Shown piece after piece: positions 49,622-58,917 of a stretch of DNA of 64,000 bases (positions are counted from its first letter, which is position 1; every line of letters begins with the position of its first letter). Made by a program: the position numbers and the translations under genes. Location of the stretch: the IMG/VR virus record IMGVR_UViG_3300032282_004772. The stretch is one strand, 5' to 3'. The notes beneath the pieces were generated by a model. The model was not told where the DNA came from. It ran no database searches and saw only the letters and a program-made list of their open reading frames with translations. This stretch comes from a virus.

Positions 49622-51640
49622 ATGATTGAATCTATGGATAACGAAAACAGAAAAGAAAATAAAAAATCTACTGAGTCTACGACACCCGCATTGGATAATT
49701 TTAGTCGTGACTTGATTAAATTGGCCGAACAAGGAAAACTTGACCCTGTAATTGGTAGAGAAAAAGAAATTCTTCGCATCGCTCAAATTCTTTCAAGAAG
49801 AAAGAAAAATAATCCTATTATTATAGGTGAACCAGGTTGTGGTAAAACCGCTATTGTCGAAGGTCTTGCAATGAAAATTTTTAATGGAGAATGTCCAAGA
49901 AATTTAGTGGATAAAAGAATTCTTTCATTAGATATGACTTCTATTGTTGCGGGAACAAAGTATAGAGGCCAGTTTGAAGAAAGGATGAAAGTAATTATTG
50001 AAGAATTACAGGCTAATCCTGATATTATTGTGTTTATCGATGAAATACACACAATTGTTGGGGCAGGTAATTCATCGGGTTCATTGGATGCTTCTAATAT
50101 TTTTAAACCAGCATTGGCTCGTGGAGAAATACAATGTATTGGGGCCACTACATTAGACGAGTATCGTAAAAACTTTGAAAAGGATGGGGCTCTTGAGCGT
50201 AGATTCCAAAAAGTAATTGTTGATGGTGCAACGAAAGAAGAAACACTAGAAATTTTAAAAAATCTAAAAGATAGATATGAAGGATTTCATAAGGTGTCTT
50301 TTTCAGATGAAGTTTTAAACACATGTGTCACTTTGGCAGAAAGATACATTACTGATAGAGAGTTCCCTGATAAAGCAATTGATATTTTAGACGAGGTTGG
50401 AGCCAGATGTCAAGTTGATATGAAACTTCCTGAAATCATTGAGGAATTAAAACTAAAGGCTCAAGAAATTAAATTAAAAAAAGTTGAGGTGGTTAAAAGT
50501 CAAAAGTATGAGGAAGCAGCTGAACTTAGAGATAAAGAAAGAAAAATTTTATCCTCATTAGATGAAGAGAAGAAAAAATTTGAACAAGATTTAAACACAA
50601 AAAAGAAAGAGGTTGAGTTGGAATTAGTTTACGAAGTAGTTTCAAATATGACAAAAATACCTGTTAGTAAATTAACTTCTGATGATACAAAAGCGCTAAT
50701 TGATTTAGACGAGATATTAAATAAAAAAGTAATTGGTCAGTCAGACGCGGTTAAAAGAATTGTTAAATCAATAAGAAGAAATAGACTTGGGATAAAAGAC
50801 CCAAGTAGACCAATTGGTTCATTTATTTTCTTAGGGTCAACTGGTGTTGGTAAAACTTATTTAGCAAAACAATTGGCTAAAGAAGTTTTTGGTAGTGAGG
50901 AATCTTTAATTAGAGTTGATATGTCTGAATATCAAGAAAAACATTCGATATCAAGATTAATTGGAGCTCCTCCAGGATATGTCGGATATGATGAAGGAGG
51001 TCAATTAACTGAACAAGTTAAAAATAAACCTTATTCGGTGATTCTTTTTGATGAAATTGAAAAGGCAAATAAAGACATTTTTTCTTCTTTATTACAAGTT
51101 CTTGATGAAGGACACATGACCGATGGTTTAGGTAGAAAAATTAATTTTAAAAATTGTATTATAATAATGACATCTAATTTAGGTGTTAAAAAATTACAAG
51201 ACTTCGGAGTTGGAGTTGGATTTAGAACAAATAATGAGTACACCAATGAAGAAATAAGAAAAGAAACATTACAAAAAGAGCTTAAAAAGTTTTTTTCACC
51301 AGAATTTTTAAATCGTATTGATGATATTGTAGTCTTTAATTCTTTAAATAAAACCAATATTGAATCTATCGTTAAGATTGAGCTTAACAAACTTAAAGAT
51401 AGATTGGATGGTCTAAAATATAACATTTCATTTGATAAGAGTATTGAAGATATGATATCTAAAGTTGGATTTGATGAATTATATGGCGCCAGACCTCTTA
51501 AGAGGGCAATACAGGAAAAGATTGAAGATTATATTTCGGAAGAAGTATTAAAAGGAAACATTAAGGAAAATACGAAATATGTTATAAAGTCTGATGAGGA
51601 TGAAAAATTAACGATAGTTAAATCTAAAAAATCAAAATAA
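49622..51640 (+). CDS. clpC: ClpC-type AAA+ ATPase lacking N-terminal domain
   Basis: GEPGCGKT/IFIDE-type D1 and GSTGVGKT/ILFDE D2, UVR middle domain YEEAAELRD, GVGF ClpP-docking-like loop. Confidence 0.9.
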   Translation: MIESMDNENRKENKKSTESTTPALDNFSRDLIKLAEQGKLDPVIGREKEILRIAQILSRRKKNNPIIIGEPGCGKTAIVEGLAMKIFNGECPRNLVDKRILSLDMTSIVAGTKYRGQFEERMKVIIEELQANPDIIVFIDEIHTIVGAGNSSGSLDASNIFKPALARGEIQCIGATTLDEYRKNFEKDGALERRFQKVIVDGATKEETLEILKNLKDRYEGFHKVSFSDEVLNTCVTLAERYITDREFPDKAIDILDEVGARCQVDMKLPEIIEELKLKAQEIKLKKVEVVKSQKYEEAAELRDKERKILSSLDEEKKKFEQDLNTKKKEVELELVYEVVSNMTKIPVSKLTSDDTKALIDLDEILNKKVIGQSDAVKRIVKSIRRNRLGIKDPSRPIGSFIFLGSTGVGKTYLAKQLAKEVFGSEESLIRVDMSEYQEKHSISRLIGAPPGYVGYDEGGQLTEQVKNKPYSVILFDEIEKANKDIFSSLLQVLDEGHMTDGLGRKINFKNCIIIMTSNLGVKKLQDFGVGVGFRTNNEYTNEEIRKETLQKELKKFFSPEFLNRIDDIVVFNSLNKTNIESIVKIELNKLKDRLDGLKYNISFDKSIEDMISKVGFDELYGARPLKRAIQEKIEDYISEEVLKGNIKENTKYVIKSDEDEKLTIVKSKKSK

Positions 51641-51738: not shown

Positions 51739-52824
51739 ATGCAAAACGAAAAAAAATGTCCGTACAGTAAGCGTAAAACTAAAGTGTTATTCATTTGTAA
51801 AAAGAGAAAACATCCATATGAATATACTGAGATTGACGATAATTTAAAATCAAACGAAAATACTAAAATTCTAAAATCTTCAGGTCTATTAAACTCAGCG
51901 AAATTTGTTTCTAAAATGTTAAATAAAAATAATATAGAATCAAAAGTTGTTGATGTTATTGATAATAATAGTATTGATAAAGTAGTAAAAGAATTTAAAC
52001 CTGATTACGTAATAATTGAAGCTCTTTGGGTAGTACCTGAAAAATTTGAAGTATTGACTAAACTACATCCAAAGGTTAAATGGATAGTTAGATTACATAG
52101 TGAAATACCGTTTTTATCTAATGAAGGAATTGCGATTGAATGGTTATACAAATACATAAAATATAAAAATGTTTACATTGGTTCAAATAGTATTGAAGCA
52201 ACAGAAATACTTGAAAATATATTAAAAACAAAATTATTCTACTTACCAAATTACTACCCAATTAAATCCGAAGGAGGATGTCCTGTTGTGGAGACTCAAG
52301 AAAATACAATCAATATTGGATGTTTTGGTGCAATTAGACCAATGAAAAATCAACTACAACAAGCAATCGCCTCTATTGAATTTGGTGACTCATTAAACAA
52401 ATCAATTAGATTTCATATAAATTCTGAGAGAATTGAATCTAGAGGGGAACCTGTATTAAAAAATATACGAGAATTATTTAAAAACAATCCAAAACATACA
52501 TTGGTAGAACACCATTGGCATGACCATCATGATTTTATAAATTTAGTTAGAAAAATGGATATAGGACTACAAGTTAGTTTTTCTGAAACATTTAACATTG
52601 TTAGTGCCGATTTTGTTTCAAATGGAATACCCGTTATAGTTTCTCCGGAAATTAATTGGGCATCCCGTATATTCAAAGTAAATCCTAACTCAAACAAAGA
52701 AATAGTAAAAAAATTAAAATTTGTTTGGAAATATAAAAAATTCGGACTAAACTTGTTTAGTTTATTTGGACTAATCAAATACAATTGGAAATCTAAAAAC
52801 GAGTGGTTAAATTATTTTTTATAA
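51739..52824 (+). CDS. Glycosyltransferase, GT-B-like
   Basis: IGCFGAIRPMKNQ, QVSFSETFNIVSADFVSNGIPVIVS. Confidence 0.7.
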   Translation: MQNEKKCPYSKRKTKVLFICKKRKHPYEYTEIDDNLKSNENTKILKSSGLLNSAKFVSKMLNKNNIESKVVDVIDNNSIDKVVKEFKPDYVIIEALWVVPEKFEVLTKLHPKVKWIVRLHSEIPFLSNEGIAIEWLYKYIKYKNVYIGSNSIEATEILENILKTKLFYLPNYYPIKSEGGCPVVETQENTINIGCFGAIRPMKNQLQQAIASIEFGDSLNKSIRFHINSERIESRGEPVLKNIRELFKNNPKHTLVEHHWHDHHDFINLVRKMDIGLQVSFSETFNIVSADFVSNGIPVIVSPEINWASRIFKVNPNSNKEIVKKLKFVWKYKKFGLNLFSLFGLIKYNWKSKNEWLNYFL

Positions 52825-52828
52825 AAAT

Positions 52829-52859
52829 TTTGCCAGAATAGTAAAATTTCATATATTTG
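52829..52859 (+). promoter_or_regulatory. Bacteroidota sigma-A promoter
   Basis: TTTG-N19-TATATTTG, 4 nt before the ATG. Confidence 0.7.
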
Positions 52860-52863
52860 CAAT

Positions 52864-53367
52864 ATGAAAAATAATCTACCATATTGTAAAACTTCTTTGG
52901 CGATTAAAGGTTATGAAGATTCTTCTATTGCCAAATCAGAAAAAAATGATTGTGTTGTTAGAGCAATTGCATCGTCTTTTGATATTGATTATGATTCGTC
53001 TCATTTTTTTGTAAAAAAAATGTTTTATAGAAAACATAGACAAGGGACTAAAAATTTTGTCTCTAAGATGTATTCTTTAATTGAAAAAGGTATTGATATT
53101 GGTGGTAAAAAATTTGAAGCGGTTGGTAAAATTAAACATGATTTTACAAAAAGACATACATTAAAATACGAAGTTAAGGTTAATGGTTCTGTGGTTGAAA
53201 GAAAAATGACCGTTGGGACATTCACTAAAAAAAACCCTAAAGGTACTTATTTGGTTGTTGTTAGAGGTCATGCGTTTACCATAAAAAATGGTGTGGTTAT
53301 TGGAAATATAGAAGACTCAGAGAGAAGGAAAAAAATCATTAATTACGCTTGGAAAGTTATCAATTAA
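52864..53367 (+). CDS. Hypothetical protein, possible Cys/His peptidase-like fold
   Basis: NDCVVRAIA...RGHAFTIKNG. Confidence 0.5.
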   Translation: MKNNLPYCKTSLAIKGYEDSSIAKSEKNDCVVRAIASSFDIDYDSSHFFVKKMFYRKHRQGTKNFVSKMYSLIEKGIDIGGKKFEAVGKIKHDFTKRHTLKYEVKVNGSVVERKMTVGTFTKKNPKGTYLVVVRGHAFTIKNGVVIGNIEDSERRKKIINYAWKVIN

Positions 53368-53372
53368 AAAAC

Positions 53373-53828
53373 ATGAAAAGAATATACCTCGATGATGTCA
53401 GAACTCCAATTGATAAGGATTGGATTGTTGTTAGGTCTTACGATGAATTTGTTTCTAAAATACAAGAAATCGGATTGTCTAAAATTGAAACAATTTCATT
53501 AGACCATGATTTAGGACGAGAAGCCATGAATGAGTACTTCAACAACGTGTCACCTAATTATACATTGGATTATAATAATTTAAAAGAAGAATTTACAGGA
53601 TACGATTGTGCAAAATGGTTAGTTAATCACTATTATGAAAAATATCACAATGACGAAACTTCATCAAAAGACAAAAAATCTTTGGGAATCTCTTTCCCTA
53701 AAGTTTATACTCATTCCGCCAACCCTATTGGAAGTGCAAATATTATGGGTTACATCAATAATTTCTTAATGAATGAACACCAATCTCAAACTTGTATAAG
53801 AGTTCAAATCGCACATAATGTTGATTAA
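53373..53828 (+). CDS. Cyclic-phosphate processing receiver-domain protein
   Basis: IYLDDVR, ISLDHDLG, TGYDCAKW, HSANPIG. Confidence 0.75.
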   Translation: MKRIYLDDVRTPIDKDWIVVRSYDEFVSKIQEIGLSKIETISLDHDLGREAMNEYFNNVSPNYTLDYNNLKEEFTGYDCAKWLVNHYYEKYHNDETSSKDKKSLGISFPKVYTHSANPIGSANIMGYINNFLMNEHQSQTCIRVQIAHNVD

Positions 53829-53829
53829 T

Positions 53830-54066
53830 ATGGAAAATTTAAGAATTAAACTAAATTCTGTTTTAAAGGTAATAATGATGATATTAATTCCTTTGGTAAT
53901 TGCCGATTCATTTTTTTACCTGATAGGTTCGTTTATTGCTCAAGATTGGAATTATGAAAATTGGTGGATGTTTACTTCTACAATTGGAAGAATTTTATTA
54001 TCTTTGATTCAAATTATGATATTAGTTAACATACCTAAGTGGTACGAACAATTTAACCAAAAATGA
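53830..54066 (+). CDS. Small membrane protein
   Basis: Two hydrophobic segments. Confidence 0.55.
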   Translation: MENLRIKLNSVLKVIMMILIPLVIADSFFYLIGSFIAQDWNYENWWMFTSTIGRILLSLIQIMILVNIPKWYEQFNQK

Positions 54067-54548
54067 ACATATTCTTTTTAGACAAAGACCCAAGAAAATG
54101 TGCTGAATATCACTGTGACAAACATGTTGTTAAAATGATATTGGAAACCGCTCAACTTCTTTGTTCTGCACACCACATGACCCCTCAAGTCACCCCTCAA
54201 GTCCCATATAAACTTTCTCATAAAAATCACCCTTGTTCGATTTGGGTTAGAGAAAGTTTATCAAACTATCTTTATCTATGTGAACTTGGCTTAGAACTTT
54301 GTAAAGAATATACATATCGTTACGGTAAAAGACACAAATCACAAGATGTTATTGAGTGGTGTCTTGTAAATAAAGTAAAAATTTGTGATAAGGGATTCAC
54401 TGAACCGGCAAAAGCAATGCCTGAATATTTTAAAGTAACAGATGTTGTTGATTCTTATAGGAATTATTATATTGGCGCAAAATCAGGATTTGCACATTGG
54501 ACTAATAGGGATGTCCCTTATTGGTTTACTAAATCATCATTAAATTAG
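54063..54548 (+). CDS. Pyrimidine-dimer glycosylase/endonuclease V-like protein
   Basis: MNIFFLD...HCDKHVVKMILETAQLL, HKNHPC..W, EY..RYGK.H. Confidence 0.75.
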   Translation: MNIFFLDKDPRKCAEYHCDKHVVKMILETAQLLCSAHHMTPQVTPQVPYKLSHKNHPCSIWVRESLSNYLYLCELGLELCKEYTYRYGKRHKSQDVIEWCLVNKVKICDKGFTEPAKAMPEYFKVTDVVDSYRNYYIGAKSGFAHWTNRDVPYWFTKSSLN

Positions 54549-54649
54549 ACTATAATTTTGTAGATAAAATAAGACAAATCATAATTTTTATTTTTTTTGA
54601 TATTTATTATTAAAAATAATATAAACTTAAATTAAAATTATCGATTTAT

Positions 54650-55255
54650 ATGTCCAAAGAGGTTATTGTGGCATTTATTACTGGTGTTTTCGGACCGGTG
54701 CTTTTACTTTTCTTAAAATACAAATTCTCTAAATTAAAAAAGACTGATATGGTCATTGACACTTTAAAAGTTAGTGAAACAGTAATGACAAAACTTGAAC
54801 AGGTAAAAGATGAGTTTGAGTCGGATAGGGTTTGGATTTCACAATTTCATAATGGTGGCAATTTTTATCCTACAGGTAAATCTATGGCTAAGTTTAGTAT
54901 ACTATATGAAGTTGTTAATCCTGGAATACTATCAATACAAACAAATTTTCAAAATATTCCTGTAAATTTATTTAGCAGGCCAATAAACAAATTATATGAA
55001 TCTGATTTAATTGAAATTCCTGACTTTAAAGATGTCACAATTGCAACATATGGTTTAAAATATGTTGCGGAAGACAGTGGATGTAAATCAGGATATCTTT
55101 TTGCAATAAAAACTATTGATAACAAATTTATTGGTATTTTAGGGATAGATTTTGTTAAAAAGAAAGTTAAACTTAATCAAGAACAAATTACTCATTTACA
55201 AGTCCATTCGGCCACATTAGGTGGAGTAATGATGGATGGTTTAAAAAAGAGTTAA
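54650..55255 (+). CDS. Membrane-anchored GAF-like protein (holin candidate)
   Basis: N-terminal TM; DRVWISQFHNG...IGILGIDF; late motif upstream. Confidence 0.5.
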   Translation: MSKEVIVAFITGVFGPVLLLFLKYKFSKLKKTDMVIDTLKVSETVMTKLEQVKDEFESDRVWISQFHNGGNFYPTGKSMAKFSILYEVVNPGILSIQTNFQNIPVNLFSRPINKLYESDLIEIPDFKDVTIATYGLKYVAEDSGCKSGYLFAIKTIDNKFIGILGIDFVKKKVKLNQEQITHLQVHSATLGGVMMDGLKKS

Positions 55256-56157
55256 GCGTAAAAATCTTGGATTTCCGCAGGAGTATCTTGAGTTATATTT
55301 TTATTTTTATATAATACTTCATCTATATCACCAGTAACTACATTAAGTAAAAAAACTCCATCTTCATGGGTTTGGTCAATTTCATCAGTATCCTCATCTC
55401 CAGCATTAACAGTAATAGTATTTAATAAAAATGTTTTTTTTGTTTTATTAAGTTCAAAATCTTTTCTTTCGACTGTATTAATAGTTGATAATACATTTTG
55501 GTCATATGATGCGTACTCATATACATCATAAGGAAGAAATTCGTTTGTATAAGTTACACCGTCCCCATTACAGTAATAACATTGTACGTTTCCGGTGCCG
55601 TCACAATTTTGACAAGTAACATCTTTTTCTCCCTTACAATCATCACAAGTAATTTCTTTGTTTCCTTCACAATAATCACAAGTAATTTTACCTCTTCCAT
55701 CACAATTACCACATTCATCCCCTTCCTCATCCACACCGTCTCCATTACAATCAGGACAATCGACAGTACCGTCTCCATCACATTCAGAACAATTGACAGT
55801 ACCTTCTCCACCACAGTTATCACAACTTACCAAGCCTCCACCATAACAATCCTCACACACCTCATTTCCACTTTCGTTACAAGAATTACACTCAATTGAA
55901 TTATTAATTTCTCCAAATTCAACTACTGAAAAAATAAAAAGATTACTATTTAATTCATTAATTAAAGACTCGACATCTTTTTCTTGGTAAACCGCATCAG
56001 CAATAAAAACTAATTTTATTATTTGGGATGGTTTCATCAGTTCTCTTATATCTTTAATATATGAATTAGACATAATTACACGATAAATTGATTCTAAACT
56101 CAAATTAGTGTCATCCATAAATGGTCTAATTGCTCTTGAAATGGAAATTAAATTCAT
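55252..56157 (-). CDS. DnaJ-type zinc-finger repeat protein without J domain
   Basis: Ten CxxC(xGxG) repeats. Confidence 0.75.
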   Translation of the reverse strand: MNLISISRAIRPFMDDTNLSLESIYRVIMSNSYIKDIRELMKPSQIIKLVFIADAVYQEKDVESLINELNSNLFIFSVVEFGEINNSIECNSCNESGNEVCEDCYGGGLVSCDNCGGEGTVNCSECDGDGTVDCPDCNGDGVDEEGDECGNCDGRGKITCDYCEGNKEITCDDCKGEKDVTCQNCDGTGNVQCYYCNGDGVTYTNEFLPYDVYEYASYDQNVLSTINTVERKDFELNKTKKTFLLNTITVNAGDEDTDEIDQTHEDGVFLLNVVTGDIDEVLYKNKNITQDTPAEIQDFYA

Positions 56158-56195
56158 AATAAATTTTATTTATAAATATCTTGAGTTTATTTAAT

Positions 56196-56226
56196 AAAAA
56201 ACCCCCTATAAAAATATAGGGGGTCT
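56196..56226 (-). terminator. Rho-independent terminator
   Basis: ACCCCCTAT/ATAGGGGGT stem with A tract. Confidence 0.8.
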
Positions 56227-56246
56227 TAACGACTACGTAGTATAAA

Positions 56247-56426
56247 TTACTTAACCACTACAGTTGTATCAACAACAGTTGTGTCCGCGGCAGTTGTGTC
56301 AACAGATAAAGAAACGGTATCAATTGAAACTGCAGTTGTATCTGTAGTTGATTCAGTTGAAGTTGTTTCAGTTCCGCAAGAAGATAACATTGTTACTACA
56401 CCGAGTGCTAAAATTACTTTTTTCAT
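56247..56426 (-). CDS. Small Thr-rich lipoprotein (59 aa, not in ORF track)
   Basis: MKKVILALGVVTMLSS-CGTETTSTESTTDTTAVSIDTVSLSVDTTAADTTVVDTTVVVK; own late motif and terminator. Confidence 0.8.
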   Translation of the reverse strand: MKKVILALGVVTMLSSCGTETTSTESTTDTTAVSIDTVSLSVDTTAADTTVVDTTVVVK

Positions 56427-56506: not shown

Positions 56507-56538
56507 TAAAAAAAGGGGATATTAAATATCCCCTTTTT
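56507..56538 (-). terminator. Terminator after tmRNA
   Basis: AAAAGGGGATAT-TAA-ATATCCCCTTTT. Confidence 0.85.
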
Positions 56539-56540
56539 GT

Positions 56541-56929
56541 TGGTGGAGGTAGAGGTATCGAAACCTCGTCTTGTTTATTTTGAATAACTATGACTACATG
56601 TTTAGGATAATATTCATTCTAAATATTCCAAAATATGAAGTTCAAATTTTGCCATCTGAGCTTCCAACGGTGGAAGGTTCACTTATACTGTGGTAGAACC
56701 TCTAACGAGACCAACAATCCACGGCTTCTGTTCCTGGGTTATACGCCTGCCGACCCGGACGAGGAAGTGCTTACGCTACTTCAACGAGCTCGTCTTGTTT
56801 AACAAGACCTAATAGAGCCATTTTGTTCAATACGTTGCCGATTGAGTTTTGAATCAGTTTTAACGAAGTTAATTCAGCTTCGACATGCCATTGATATACA
56901 ATAATACCAATCAATTCCAACTTACCCCC
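56541..56929 (-). ncRNA. ssrA: tmRNA
   Basis: 5' GGGGGUA pairs with UACCUCC-ACCA including G3.U; GCAUG/CAUGU helix; PK1 (CGAAG/CUUCG, UGAAUUA/UGAUUCA); tag frame 56839-56771. Confidence 0.9.
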
Positions 56930-56948: not shown

Positions 56949-56980
56949 CAAAGATATAAATATATCTTCAAATAATCAAA
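56949..56980 (-). promoter_or_regulatory. Bacteroidota sigma-A promoter for tmRNA
   Basis: TTTG-N20-TATCTTTG on the minus strand. Confidence 0.75.
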
Positions 56981-57000: not shown

Positions 57001-58056
57001 ATGAGATTAAAACTTTTTGAAGAAGTTAATGAAGATTGGCTCTATATGCAATTGCATATGTTTAAAAGAGGTATTGTTTCTGAAACACAAATTAAACGTG
57101 CGGATGATTTGATTTATGATATTAAAAAAAATGGAATCATAACTTTAAAATTTGATAATAATAATGACTATTTTAAATTATTTAAAAATAAACTTAGTAA
57201 TGATGACATTTTTATTATGGACCAAATTTTTAATTCATACTATGGAAGTATGGAATTTTTTGATAGTTATAGAGCAAATGAAGATTGGGAGTGTGGGTAC
57301 ATTGTAAGTACATTTAATGAATCTAACATGGATAAAGTAAAAGAAATTTCCATGATAATATCACCTGGAATAGATTTTGAAGATTACGCATCCACTCCAA
57401 GGGAAGATTTTTCTCAAAAATTAAATAATTTTTTTCCAAGAATTGTAGAAGATATAATTAATGAATATTCTTCATCCATAGATACCGCAATAAAAGACTA
57501 TATTTCAAATTACATAGAAAAAGATATTTGTGACGCTTTTTATAATTATGGAATTTATAATTCAAATTATTGTTTTTACAAATATCACACAACAGTTGAT
57601 AATCTTATAAAATTGTATGATACTTTTGGTGAAAAAAGTAAGCCTTTGGTGAACTTATTAAAAAAAATTGCCGATTTAACCGATATTGAAGGTAATTATT
57701 GGGAAGAATATATTGATGCAACAAGTAGCGTAAATTTTGATAGTGACTCTTTTAATAACTATGTTGGAAGAAAGTTAGATGATATTATAGAGCGATTAGA
57801 AGAGGATTCTGAAATGTTTTTATCTATTAATGAATACAAAAACATAGTAAAAAAATTATCAAAAAAATATAATTTTAATAGATGGTATGATTTACCAAAG
57901 GATAAAAAAATAATGTTTAAGATTACTCATATTGACCCCGGAACAAACAAGATTAATTTTGAAGTTAAAAACCAAAATGGTTTTTATCGTAACTCATTAA
58001 ACTTGGAAAATTTTAATTTATTTTTACATCATCCTGAAATAAAATTTGAGGATTAA
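57001..58056 (+). CDS. Hypothetical protein
   Basis: 351 aa; MRLKLFEE N-terminus; TATTTAT 4 nt upstream. Confidence 0.6.
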   Translation: MRLKLFEEVNEDWLYMQLHMFKRGIVSETQIKRADDLIYDIKKNGIITLKFDNNNDYFKLFKNKLSNDDIFIMDQIFNSYYGSMEFFDSYRANEDWECGYIVSTFNESNMDKVKEISMIISPGIDFEDYASTPREDFSQKLNNFFPRIVEDIINEYSSSIDTAIKDYISNYIEKDICDAFYNYGIYNSNYCFYKYHTTVDNLIKLYDTFGEKSKPLVNLLKKIADLTDIEGNYWEEYIDATSSVNFDSDSFNNYVGRKLDDIIERLEEDSEMFLSINEYKNIVKKLSKKYNFNRWYDLPKDKKIMFKITHIDPGTNKINFEVKNQNGFYRNSLNLENFNLFLHHPEIKFED

Positions 58057-58092: not shown

Positions 58093-58917
58093 ATGTCAAG
58101 AGACCTTAATTTATTAAAAGAAGTTCTTTCAGTTCCAACTCACACATATGAAGAGGATTTGATGGTTCAATTCATTTCTGATTGGTTGAGAAAAAATAAT
58201 ATAGACCATTACGTAGATGAACACTTAAATGTTTATGCGACCAAACAAACTGGTGTGTTATCAGACGATTTTATGTTTCCTTGTGTTGTATCTCATACCG
58301 ATACTGTACACAGACTTGACACTATCAATGTTGTAGAAGAAATGTTACCTAATTCACACGGTGAATTAAAATTATCACTTAAGGCGTATAATAATGATGG
58401 AGAACCGACAGGAATTGGTGGTGATGATAAATGCGGTGTATTTGCATGTTTAGAACTTTTAAAAGAATTACCTAATTTAAAAGCGGCATTTTTTGTTTCA
58501 GAAGAAACGGGGTGTCACGGCTCAAAAAAAGCAAACGAATCATTTTTTTCAAACGTAGGTTATGCAATTCAATTTGATGCACCAGAAAATTGGATGGTGA
58601 CTGAAACTTGTTTTGGAACAAGGTTGTTTGATAGAAAAAGTGAGTTTTTTGAGAAGTGTGATATCATTTTAAATGAAAACATGAATGATAAACTCAAGTA
58701 TATGACACATCCTTATACCGATGTTTATGCGCTTAAAAACAAATTTAATTTTTCATGTATTAACTTCTCAATCGGATATTATCGATATCATACAAGAAAT
58801 GAATATGTTGTTGTGGAAGATACATTTAATGGAATTGAGATGGGTAAAAAAATGATTGAGTCCTTGGGATATCAAAAATACGAGTACAAACAAACTAAGA
58901 AAGAATACTTTTTTTAA
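58093..58917 (+). CDS. M20/M28-family metallopeptidase
   Basis: SHTDTV, GGDDKCG, SEETG, QFD, YHT..E. Confidence 0.85.
   Translation: MSRDLNLLKEVLSVPTHTYEEDLMVQFISDWLRKNNIDHYVDEHLNVYATKQTGVLSDDFMFPCVVSHTDTVHRLDTINVVEEMLPNSHGELKLSLKAYNNDGEPTGIGGDDKCGVFACLELLKELPNLKAAFFVSEETGCHGSKKANESFFSNVGYAIQFDAPENWMVTETCFGTRLFDRKSEFFEKCDIILNENMNDKLKYMTHPYTDVYALKNKFNFSCINFSIGYYRYHTRNEYVVVEDTFNGIEMGKKMIESLGYQKYEYKQTKKEYFF

What the first reader, a model, noticed from the sequence alone, without database searches (positions are those of the whole stretch)
56541..56929. Phage tmRNA with a long, non-canonical tag
Seen: from a GGC resume codon after PK1, the tag reads (A)GNVLNKMALLGLVKQDELVEVA-stop (22 aa), with the stop in a GUAA-capped helix. 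The T-arm is atypical (U-A closing pair, 6-nt loop). Established: bacterial tags are usually about 10 aa and end in a YALAA-like degron; Bacteroidota tags also begin with Gly. Inference: this tmRNA may rescue ribosomes while rerouting tagged proteins, either evading host ClpXP or feeding the phage ClpC. No smpB is present in this window.
Basis: partly seen in the sequence, partly recalled or inferred. Interest (0 to 1): 0.7.

Follow-up and report, generated by a model that had tools for sequence, protein, structure and literature searches.

The report
Jumbo-phage tmRNA with conserved long tag
A large freshwater phage carries its own ribosome-rescue RNA (tmRNA) that adds a 22-residue tail, twice the usual length; at least 100 related phage contigs keep this tail and 74 sampled bacteria of the likely host phylum lack it, but which protease reads the tail is unknown.

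Summary
Window 56541-56929 (minus strand) is a real one-piece tmRNA (Rfam RF00023, 73.3 bits against a cut-off of 47). Its tag, read from GGC, is GNVLNKMALLGLVKQDELVEVA-stop.

Comparison settles the frame. I found 75 distinct related tmRNAs (104 IMG/VR loci plus the window) from a lineage of about 300-kb T4-like phages, probably of Bacteroidota.
- All keep this frame open for 21-22 codons.
- All have A at -4 before the resume codon and end in (V/L)A.
- Changes are mostly at third codon positions, and the only indel is one codon.
- RNA identity to the window is only 47-65%, yet the tag peptide is conserved.
- 35 of 47 predicted pairs covary, and G3:U70 is invariant.

The 6-nt T-loop is real (seen in two other studies' contigs) but unique to this phage. 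Both complete relatives encode SmpB; the window does not. By contrast, 72 of 74 sampled Bacteroidota tmRNAs have 8-11 aa tags ending in AA. ARAGORN misses 62 of the 75.

ClpC without its N-domain sits next to the tmRNA in this lineage only, and a -VA end does not exclude ClpXP.

Verdict: a new variant of a known kind.

The parts
56541..56929 (-). One-piece tmRNA gene (389 nt), ending in an encoded discriminator A plus CCA
   Evidence: Rfam RF00023, 73.3 bits against gathering score 47, full model 1-374. It is homologous to 74 other distinct phage tmRNAs. 35 of 47 pairs covary.
56923..56929 (-). Acceptor stem, 5' strand GGGGGUA. It pairs with UACCUCC at 56545-56551 and includes G3:U70.
   Evidence: Sequence. 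The G:U at alignment columns 4/479 is invariant in 57 of 57, while neighbouring pairs covary (GC, CG, AU, UA).
56851..56882 (-). Pseudoknot PK1: CGAAG...CUUCG interleaved with UGAAUUA...UGAUUCA
   Evidence: Sequence. Stem 2 (A1 columns 58-63/82-87) has compensatory changes in 5 of 6 pairs.
56771..56839 (-). Tag reading frame: resume codon GGC (56837-56839), 22 sense codons, stop UAA (56771-56773). Product: (A)GNVLNKMALLGLVKQDELVEVA.
   Evidence: This is the only frame open in all 13 first relatives and in all 75 family members. A at -4 is present in 75 of 75. Third positions vary in 21 of 22 codons against 9 of 22 second positions, and pN/pS is 0.53. The only indel is one codon. The one strain variant inside it, 56792 G>A, is synonymous (GAC to GAU).
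56764..56782 (-). Hairpin holding the stop codon (helix 5 equivalent), GUAA loop
   Evidence: Local fold of -8.9 kcal/mol. The stop codon is enclosed by a hairpin in 75 of 75 family members, built from different sequences.
56552..56567 (-). T-arm GAGGU-UUCGAU-ACCUC: 5-bp stem, U-A closing pair, 6-nt loop (one nt short)
   Evidence: Sequence. It is unique among 75 members; the nearest T-arms read GAGGU-UUCGAUU-ACCUC. It is reproduced without indel in contigs of runs X2 and X5, from other studies.
56508..56533 (-). Intrinsic terminator directly after CCA: GGGGAUAU-UUA-AUAUCCCC followed by U7
   Evidence: Sequence. A hairpin plus T-run follows the gene in 66 of 75 family members.
56949..56980 (-). 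Bacteroidota-type promoter: TTTG (56977-56980), 20-nt spacer, TAtcTTTG (56949-56956). The box ends 19 nt before the mature 5' end, which implies a processed leader.
   Evidence: Sequence. TAnnTTTG lies within 90 nt upstream in 57 of 75 members against 10 of 75 shuffles. The full -33/-7 pattern occurs in 16 of 75 against 0.
49622..51640 (+). ClpC orthologue without the N-terminal adaptor domain (672 aa). It keeps the M-domain region and a VGF ClpP-docking loop. It is a candidate reader of the tag, not a demonstrated one.
   Evidence: phmmer against S. aureus ClpC residues 148-800, E 1.4e-222; Pfam AAA_2, AAA_lid_9, ClpB_D2-small. It is found in 60 of 104 tmRNA loci at a median of 2.4 kb and 2.5-3 kb from the tmRNA in G001-G003.
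57001..58056 (+). Divergently transcribed neighbour of unknown function (351 aa), syntenic with the tmRNA
   Evidence: Present in 80 of 104 tmRNA loci at a median of 378 nt, with only about 27% identity. No Pfam, NCBIfam or Atlas assignment.
58093..58917 (+). M20-like metallopeptidase-fold protein (274 aa), syntenic with the tmRNA
   Evidence: Weak Peptidase_M20 and PepT-like matches below the curated cut-offs. Present in 74 of 104 tmRNA loci at a median of 1.5 kb.

Best explanation
This is a working, phage-encoded one-piece tmRNA. It belongs to a widespread lineage of uncultured freshwater T4-like jumbo phages of about 300 kb that most likely infect Bacteroidota.

Proposed mechanism:
1. The gene is transcribed on its own from a host-type promoter and ends at an intrinsic terminator.
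2. The 5' leader is processed.
3. Host AlaRS charges the RNA with alanine through G3:U70.
4. With SmpB, which the complete relatives encode themselves, it enters stalled ribosomes.
5. Translation resumes at GGC and appends (A)GNVLNKMALLGLVKQDELVEVA.

The 21-22 residue tag is a lineage-specific peptide under purifying selection. V3, G11, L12 and the C-terminal (V/L)A are fixed or nearly fixed.

Inference: the tag is a degradation signal whose non-polar C-terminus is read by a Clp-type unfoldase that feeds ClpP, and the conserved first 14 residues are a second recognition element for an adaptor or for a particular unfoldase.

Shown here: the RNA family, its structure, the reading frame, selection on the peptide, SmpB in relatives, and the contrast with tags of the host phylum. 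Inferred: expression, charging, that the tag is a degron, and which protease reads it (roughly equal odds for host ClpXP and the neighbouring phage ClpC lacking its N-domain).
For: - Family membership: Rfam 73.3 bits, full length.
- Relatives: 12 of 22 large related contigs have a tmRNA, including both complete genomes. In all, 104 IMG/VR loci give 74 distinct sequences besides the window.
- Structure: 35 of 47 pairs show compensatory changes, and G3:U70 is invariant in 57 of 57.
- Frame: it is open in all members. A is at -4 in 75 of 75. Variation is biased to third positions, pN/pS is 0.53, and the single indel is one codon. There are 30 distinct peptides, all ending (V/L)A. The tag is identical in L144 and L126 although their RNAs are at most 65% identical to the window's.
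- The stop codon lies in a hairpin in 75 of 75.
- Transcription signals: promoter box in 57 of 75 against 10 of 75 shuffles, and a terminator in 66 of 75.
- SmpB at 143 and 138 bits in both complete relatives, each with a C-terminal tail carrying the DKR motif.
- 74 of 74 sampled Bacteroidota tmRNAs are found by ARAGORN; 72 of its 74 tag calls are 8-11 aa ending in AA.
- ClpC orthologue with a ClpP-docking VGF loop, next to the tmRNA in all three large relatives.
- An LVA end is as destabilising as LAA in E. coli (PMC9097571).
Against: - There is no expression, charging or tagging data of any kind.
- The window's own copy has a T-loop one nucleotide short, found in no relative. This could weaken SmpB binding or the T-loop/D-loop contact.
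- smpB was not found in the window, and the rest of this genome could not be searched.
- The host is inferred only from promoter type, the Gly resume codon and distant capsid similarity to a Flavobacterium phage.
- The phage tmRNAs resemble sampled Bacteroidota tmRNAs only at the 3' tRNA-like end.
- That the tag is a degron rests on analogy alone.
- The ClpC link does not hold outside this lineage.
- ClpP is encoded by only one of three large relatives.
Confidence: 0.8

Rival explanations
1. Private degradation circuit. The long tag is read specifically by the phage's own ClpC lacking its N-domain (with host or phage ClpP) and poorly by host ClpXP. Rescue products made during infection would then be handled by phage-controlled proteolysis, much as the long Mesoplasma florum tag is read by that organism's own Lon.
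For: - ClpC without the adaptor-binding N-domain, but with a VGF ClpP loop, lies 2.4 kb (median) from the tmRNA in 60 of 104 loci and in all three large relatives.
- The phages have no ClpX and no SspB.
- The tag differs in length and in its C-terminus from the tag calls for 72 of 74 sampled Bacteroidota tmRNAs.
- The first 14 residues are conserved although a C-terminal degron alone would not need them.
- There is a precedent for an orthogonal tag-protease pair (PMC9097571).
Against: - All relatives belong to one lineage with conserved gene order, so adjacency may be inherited and not functional.
- In LR756504 and LR756508 the tmRNA and ClpC lie 254 kb and 362 kb apart, and LR745206 and LR756502 have ClpC but no tmRNA.
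- No binding or degradation data exist.
- ClpP is missing from two of the three large relatives.
Confidence: 0.28
2. Ordinary degron read by the host. The xVA-COOH end is recognised by host ClpXP (or Lon, FtsH or Tsp) like any ssrA tag. The extra conserved residues act only as a spacer or as a site for a host adaptor. The phage copy simply raises rescue capacity during infection.
For: - The C-terminus is small and non-polar in all 30 tag variants.
- The LVA variant is as destabilising as LAA in E. coli (PMC9097571).
- Bacillus phage G's tag also ends in QVA (PMC12484599).
- The usual published view of phage tmRNAs is that they maintain translation (PMC7162821, PMC9004378).
Against: - A spacer would not keep V3, G11 and L12 invariant across RNAs that are 47-65% identical.
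- Among 74 sampled Bacteroidota tags, 68 end in AA plus a stop and 4 more in AA plus two stops; none ends in VA. The specificity of the host ClpX may therefore be narrow.
Confidence: 0.3
3. Rescue without destruction. The tag is not a degron. It frees ribosomes while marking or diverting the truncated proteins in another way, such as sparing phage products, sequestration, or recognition by the neighbouring unknown protein or peptidase.
For: - The tag lacks the AA end seen in 72 of the 74 sampled tag calls of the host phylum.
- An unknown gene (57001-58056) and an M20-like peptidase gene are syntenic with the tmRNA in 80 and 74 of 104 loci.
Against: - Every tag studied so far is a proteolysis signal (established knowledge; PMC4131195).
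- The non-polar C-terminus is the classic feature of such signals.
- There is no amphipathic-helix or other targeting signature.
Confidence: 0.12
4. This particular copy is impaired. The one-nucleotide deletion in the T-loop makes the window's tmRNA a weak or dead allele, even though the family as a whole is functional.
For: - A 6-nt T-loop occurs in 1 of 75 family members only.
- The T-loop normally contacts the D-loop and SmpB (established knowledge of tRNA-like domains).
Against: - The same sequence recurs in contigs from two other studies, so the allele persists in nature.
- The tag, PK1, the acceptor stem, the promoter and the terminator are all intact.
- The within-population change in the tag is synonymous.
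- Other subgroups of the family tolerate T-loops without UUC.
Confidence: 0.12

Closest known systems
Bacterial one-piece tmRNA (SsrA, Rfam RF00023), in particular those of Bacteroidota
   Same: - tRNA-like domain with G3:U70.
- PK1 directly before the resume codon, with A at -4.
- A short ORF ending in a hairpin, followed by further pseudoknots, a T-arm and ACCA.
- Gly resume codon, as in many Bacteroidota.
- Works with SmpB.
   Different: - Tag of 21-22 aa ending in VA, against 8-11 aa ending (L/M/V)AA in 72 of 74 sampled Bacteroidota tag calls.
- Sequence similarity to those tmRNAs is confined to the 3' end.
- The window's T-loop has 6 nt.
- ARAGORN finds 74 of 74 cellular ones but only 13 of 75 of this family.
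Known phage-encoded tmRNAs: mycobacteriophage Bxz1 group and Bacillus phage G (PMC4131195; PMC12484599), huge phages with tmRNA plus SmpB (PMC7162821), two-piece tmRNA of Melnitz-like marine phages (PMC9004378)
   Same: - Large phages carrying a complete ssrA, sometimes with smpB.
- Phage G's tag (AKLNITNNELQVA) also ends in VA.
   Different: - No DNA similarity to any of 50,697 GenBank phage records.
- A one-piece form with a tag family of its own.
- The papers found by three of my four literature searches do not analyse phage tag conservation or this lineage.
- Those surveys used ARAGORN, which misses most of this family.
Mesoplasma florum ssrA tag read by its own Lon protease (orthogonal tag-protease pair)
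   Same: A long tag whose recognition has moved to a protease other than ClpXP, with recognition spread over more than the last three residues (PMC9097571).
   Different: - That pair is shown by experiment; here no protease has been tested.
- The candidate reader here is a ClpC, not a Lon.
- There is no sequence similarity between the tags.

Membership tests
tmRNA (Rfam RF00023) | Covariance-model score above the curated gathering score over the full model | tested here: met
   73.3 bits against 47, model positions 1-374, E 1.4e-26.
tmRNA (Rfam RF00023) | tRNA-Ala-like acceptor stem with G3:U70, discriminator A and a 3' CCA | tested here: met
   GGGGGUA pairs with UACCUCC, followed by ACCA. 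The G:U pair is invariant in 57 of 57 while flanking pairs covary.
tmRNA (Rfam RF00023) | T-arm: a 5-bp stem with a UUCGA-type loop | tested here: met
   GAGGU-UUCGAU-ACCUC. All five stem pairs covary in the family. The loop has 6 nt and not the typical 7. Loop length is typical and not defining; other members of this family have AGUCGGA or GGCAGUA loops.
tmRNA (Rfam RF00023) | Pseudoknot PK1 immediately 5' of the resume codon, with the upstream A at -4 that sets the frame | tested here: met
   The interleaved stems occupy RNA positions 48-79. Stem 2 covaries. A is at -4 in 75 of 75. The role of the upstream A is discussed in PMC2481249, which I saw only as a listing and did not read.
tmRNA (Rfam RF00023) | Internal tag ORF conserved as a peptide, ending at a stop codon in a hairpin | tested here: met
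   One frame is open in 75 of 75, variation is biased to third positions, and the indel is one codon. The stop codon lies in a hairpin in 75 of 75.
tmRNA (Rfam RF00023) | Partner protein SmpB available | tested here: inconclusive
   None in the window. SmpB is present in both complete relatives. The rest of this genome could not be searched. The host's SmpB could also serve.
tmRNA (Rfam RF00023) | Alanylation and trans-translation activity | not testable with these tools
   This needs charging and tagging assays.
Canonical ssrA degron read by ClpXP (tags ending ...LAA) | Tag of about 8-14 residues ending in (L/M/V)AA-COOH | tested here: not met
   The tag has 22 residues and ends in EVA. The family ends in TVA, VVA, SVA, AVA, NVA, EVA or VLA. 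Of 74 sampled Bacteroidota tag calls, 72 end in AA.
Canonical ssrA degron read by ClpXP (tags ending ...LAA) | Degradation by ClpXP | not testable with these tools
   The only analogy available is the LVA variant, which is efficient in E. coli (PMC9097571).
Orthogonal long-tag/protease pairs (Mesoplasma florum tag with mf-Lon) | A dedicated protease that recognises the long tag and co-occurs with it | tested here: inconclusive
   The phage ClpC is adjacent in this lineage but unlinked or without a tmRNA in other huge phages. No binding test was possible.

The most novel reading that the evidence does not exclude
A widespread group of freshwater jumbo phages runs its own quality-control circuit. 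It consists of a phage tmRNA, a phage SmpB, a phage-specific 22-residue degron, and a phage ClpC that has shed its adaptor domain and reads that degron directly. The circuit would be orthogonal to the host's ...AA tags (presumed to be read by ClpXP), letting the phage decide which stalled products are destroyed and recycled during infection. The tag and ClpC would then be a natural orthogonal degron-unfoldase pair.
Probability: 0.25. Interest if true: 0.8.

Novelty: new variant of a known kind. Interest (0 to 1): 0.55.

Why it matters
Why phages carry tmRNAs is an open question, and the usual answer ("to keep translation going") says nothing about the tag. This lineage offers a large natural data set. 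It has 75 distinct RNAs and 30 tag variants in which the peptide, not the RNA, is what selection keeps. That implies something reads more than the last three residues.

The lineage keeps a ClpC that lacks its adaptor domain beside the tmRNA, and its complete genomes also encode SmpB. This gives a concrete hypothesis to test and a possible new orthogonal degron-unfoldase pair for Bacteroidota genetics.

There is also a practical point. The standard finder, ARAGORN, misses about five in six of these genes and mis-reads the tag in half of those it does find. Published counts of phage tmRNAs, which rely on it, are therefore likely to be too low for such phages.

Tried and rejected
- Other reading frames: GCA gives ATY*, and CAA gives QRIEQNGSIRSC* ending in the UUAAA loop. 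Both carry stops at varying places in relatives. Rejected.
- ARAGORN's short tag ATE[EQ]VTVA, called for 7 relatives, is an internal restart within the conserved frame. Rejected.
- The Rfam alignment of helix 5 to GUCUUG-UUAAA-CAAGAC: that helix is absent from most relatives. Rejected.
- Amphipathic-helix idea for the tag: the hydrophobic moment is no higher than in shuffles. Rejected.
- Adding a T to the T-loop in silico, to ask only whether ARAGORN would then detect the gene: it did not. The T-loop is therefore not why ARAGORN fails.
- blastn of the tmRNA against GenBank phages: no match.
- An exact 23-mer of the tmRNA in IMG/VR: no match.
- The two flanking proteins as probes in IMG/VR: no confirmed relative. 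The capsid worked instead.
- The tag-coding pattern in 185,579 species' genomes: none of the 120 returned loci has tmRNA context.
- Sequencing runs: no RNA holder is listed. The run labelled 'RNA?' (X12) is probably DNA, and only short pieces 90-95% alike lay on the region. This says nothing about expression.
- ORF 57001-58056: no family in Pfam or NCBIfam and no usable Atlas hit.
- Cultured relative: Flavobacterium phage immuto (capsid 42% identical) has no tmRNA, so no isolate carrying this system is at hand.
- The genome search on the window's own genome is not available.
- Complex prediction was not used, because the tag (22 aa) is below the 30-residue minimum for a chain.
Full report
**1.

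cmscan against Rfam places tmRNA (RF00023) at exactly 56541-56929 on the minus strand. The match covers the full model at 73.3 bits, against a gathering score of 47. ARAGORN reports only five tRNAs in the window and no tmRNA.

On the RNA strand the parts are:
- The acceptor stem GGGGGUA/UACCUCC, with G3:U70 and an encoded ACCA.
- An H-type pseudoknot (CGAAG/CUUCG interleaved with UGAAUUA/UGAUUCA).
- The stretch AAACUCAAUC, followed by GGC AAC GUA ... GUA GCG UAA.

This reads GNVLNKMALLGLVKQDELVEVA-stop, 22 residues, at window 56771-56839. Rfam's own alignment puts the model's resume codon on this GGC.

The stop codon lies in the hairpin GAAGU-A-GC GUAA GC-ACUUC. The T-arm is GAGGU-UUCGAU-ACCUC, with a U-A closing pair and six loop nucleotides.

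**2. What the window is**

The window encodes a major head protein, a portal and a large terminase, so it is a phage. Its capsid has about 600 relatives in IMG/VR at 74-89% identity. Some lie on contigs of 229-321 kb, and two of those are rated complete. Earlier notes of this scan call the genome an uncultured T4-like freshwater phage of about 320 kb and 'Bacteroidota type'. No GenBank phage has similar tmRNA DNA.

**3. A large family of the same tmRNA**

Rfam finds a tmRNA in 12 of 22 larger related contigs, including both complete genomes. At least 88 of them carry the tag in tmRNA context. An HMM then gave 104 loci and 74 distinct full-length sequences besides the window.

The RNAs are very divergent: the window is 47-65% identical to them. 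RNAalifold on 57 sequences under 95% identical predicts 47 pairs, and 35 of them show compensatory double changes. These cover the acceptor stem, helix 2, a PK1 stem, two later stems and the T-arm. The G:U at acceptor position 3:70 is invariant in 57 of 57. This is a functional RNA family, not a relic.

**4. The reading frame is settled by comparison**

- In all 75 sequences only the GGC (or GAC, GGA) frame is open, for 21 or 22 codons. The other two frames have stops at varying places.
- The base at -4 is A in 75 of 75. This matches a known frame-setting determinant of E. coli tmRNA; that is established knowledge, and the paper PMC2481249 was listed but not read.
- Third codon positions vary in 21 of 22 codons, second positions in 9 of 22, and summed pN/pS is 0.53.
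- The only length change inside the ORF is exactly one codon.
- There are 30 distinct peptides. V3, G11, L12 and the last A are invariant. G1, N2 and the penultimate V are nearly so. The consensus is G-N-V-[LI]-[ND]-[KN]-[ML]-x-x-[LVI]-G-L-[IVL]-[RK]-x-x-E-x-x-(x)-V-A.
- Two relatives (L144, L126) have a tag identical to the window's, although their RNAs are at most 65% identical.
- The one strain variant inside the ORF seen in other samples, 56792 G>A, is a synonymous GAC to GAU change.
- The stop codon is enclosed by a local hairpin in 75 of 75, built from different sequences.

The helix that Rfam matched to its stop-codon helix is specific to the window's subgroup, and its UAA is out of frame.

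**5. The odd T-loop**

No other family member has a 6-nt loop. The nearest T-arms read GAGGU-UUCGAUU-ACCUC. Contigs from two other studies cover 56552-56567 without any insertion (X2 record 10 with no difference; X5 record 29 with no gap). The deletion is therefore real and persists in nature. Whether it costs activity is unknown.

It is not the reason ARAGORN fails. Adding the T back in silico, purely as a detection check, still gives no call.

**6. Surroundings and partners**

A Bacteroidota-type promoter (TTTG, 20 nt, TAtcTTTG) ends 19 nt before the mature 5' end. A strong hairpin plus U7 follows the CCA. Across the family the -7 box occurs in 57 of 75 upstream regions against 10 of 75 shuffles, and a terminator follows in 66 of 75.

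Partner genes:
- SmpB: the window has none. Both complete relatives encode one (143 and 138 bits), each with the C-terminal tail. In the 296-kb relative it lies 7.3 kb beyond the tmRNA, which by synteny would fall just past the window's end. I could not look there.
- ClpC: the AAA+ protein at 49622-51640 is a true ClpC orthologue. It aligns to S. aureus ClpC residues 148-800 at E 1e-222. It starts at D1 without the N-domain, keeps the middle-domain region, and keeps a VGF ClpP-docking loop.
- ClpC position: it lies within 2.4 kb (median) of the tmRNA in 60 of 104 loci, and 2.5-3 kb away in all three large relatives.
- ClpP is encoded by one of the three large relatives. ClpX and SspB are encoded by none.
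- Two further genes travel with the tmRNA: an unknown 351-aa gene read divergently (80 of 104 loci) and an M20-like peptidase-fold gene (74 of 104).

**7. Contrast with cellular tags**

I sampled 151 Bacteroidota genomes; all have a tmRNA. ARAGORN found the gene in all 74 that I extracted. Its tag calls are 8-11 aa for all but two (ANRDYA, 6 aa, and DQVDKLNSVP, 10 aa ending in VP, both probably mis-calls). Examples are GENNYALAA, ADDYSYAMAA and DNNYSYRLAA, and 72 of the 74 calls end in AA. The phage-family HMM matches these tmRNAs only over the last 60-80 nt.

The tag pattern found no tmRNA among 120 loci returned from cellular genomes.

**8. How it most likely works**

The shown parts support a complete trans-translation RNA that appends a lineage-specific peptide. 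That the peptide is a degron is an inference. It rests on the universal role of tmRNA tags and on the tag's non-polar C-terminus.

The reader of the tag is open. A -VA end does not by itself exclude ClpXP. The LVA variant of the E. coli tag is reported to be as destabilising as LAA (PMC9097571), and Bacillus phage G's tag also ends in QVA (PMC12484599).

On the other hand, invariant residues far from the C-terminus call for a second recognition element. The neighbouring ClpC without its adaptor domain is the obvious candidate. The Mesoplasma florum tag with its own Lon is the precedent for such a switch of protease.

Against a functional link: all relatives share gene order by descent. In other huge phages ClpC occurs without a tmRNA (LR745206, LR756502), or lies 254 kb and 362 kb from it (LR756504, LR756508).

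My odds for what reads the tag:
- Host protease: about 0.30.
- Phage ClpC: about 0.28.
- Not a degron: about 0.12.

Separately, I put about 0.12 on this particular copy being impaired by its T-loop.

**9. Known or new**

Phage tmRNAs are known:
- Mycobacteriophages of the Bxz1 group and Bacillus phage G (PMC4131195).
- About 2.3% of isolate phage genomes (PMC9004378).
- Huge phages with tmRNA and SmpB (PMC7162821).

Long tags are known in Mollicutes. The papers returned by three of my four literature searches describe neither this lineage, nor a conserved phage-specific tag family, nor its linkage to ClpC. The searched library does not hold all journals, so an earlier description cannot be excluded.

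Those surveys relied on ARAGORN, which detects 13 of 75 members here and mis-calls the tag in 7 of those 13. I rate the finding a new variant of a known kind, of moderate interest.

**10. Limits**

There is no expression, charging or proteolysis evidence. The host is inferred. The tag-pattern bait biases the larger sample towards tags like the query. The first 12 relatives, however, were found by capsid and Rfam alone, and they show the same conservation.

Noticed in passing
L430:1501-1947 (LR756508.1 92434-92880): An unrelated tmRNA (72 bits) in a 484-kb uncultured huge phage. Its best frame, after ...ATAACT, gives a 36-aa putative tag GVNNADYES...KPAAV*. ARAGORN calls GRRKPLSW* instead. The frame was not checked by comparison.
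   Followed up: partly
L437:1501-1857 (LR756504.1 280507-280863): A tmRNA (65 bits) in a 636-kb huge phage with a putative 24-aa tag DNVNSFEQSILNELFAPVEMAVAA*. The tag starts DNV, like the window's family. ARAGORN finds no gene. Long tags that the standard finder misses may be common in huge phages.
   Followed up: partly
G001 (296-kb relative reached through L020) 149218-152891: The ClpC gene appears split. Residues 6-74 match at 152685-152891 and residues 64-664 match at 149218-151026, with about 1.6 kb between them. This may be an intron, an intein or an inserted mobile gene.
   Followed up: no
window 56635-56722; alignment A1 columns 230-380: A strain contig in run X3 replaces this 86-nt stretch of the tmRNA's pseudoknot region with 85 unrelated letters. 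Across the family, the region between PK2 and the last pseudoknot looks mosaic, with modules shared between otherwise different tmRNAs.
   Followed up: no
L090, L120, L193, L218 (T-loop AGUCGGA); L125, L187 (GGCAGUA, GGCGGUA): Subgroups of the family have T-loops without the UUC motif. Most members also lack an encoded CCA (they end ACTA, ACAC, ACAA and so on), so they need the host's CCA-adding enzyme.
   Followed up: no
window 51739-56426: The window has about 5 kb of genes between ClpC and the tmRNA that most relatives lack; their median gap is 2.4 kb. The extra genes include a GT4-like protein, a pyrimidine-dimer glycosylase, a 301-aa protein with DnaJ/BSD2-type CxxCxGxG zinc fingers, and a small lipoprotein.
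   Followed up: partly
It could be a regulator or adaptor of the ClpC that lacks its N-domain. I did not examine it.
   Followed up: no
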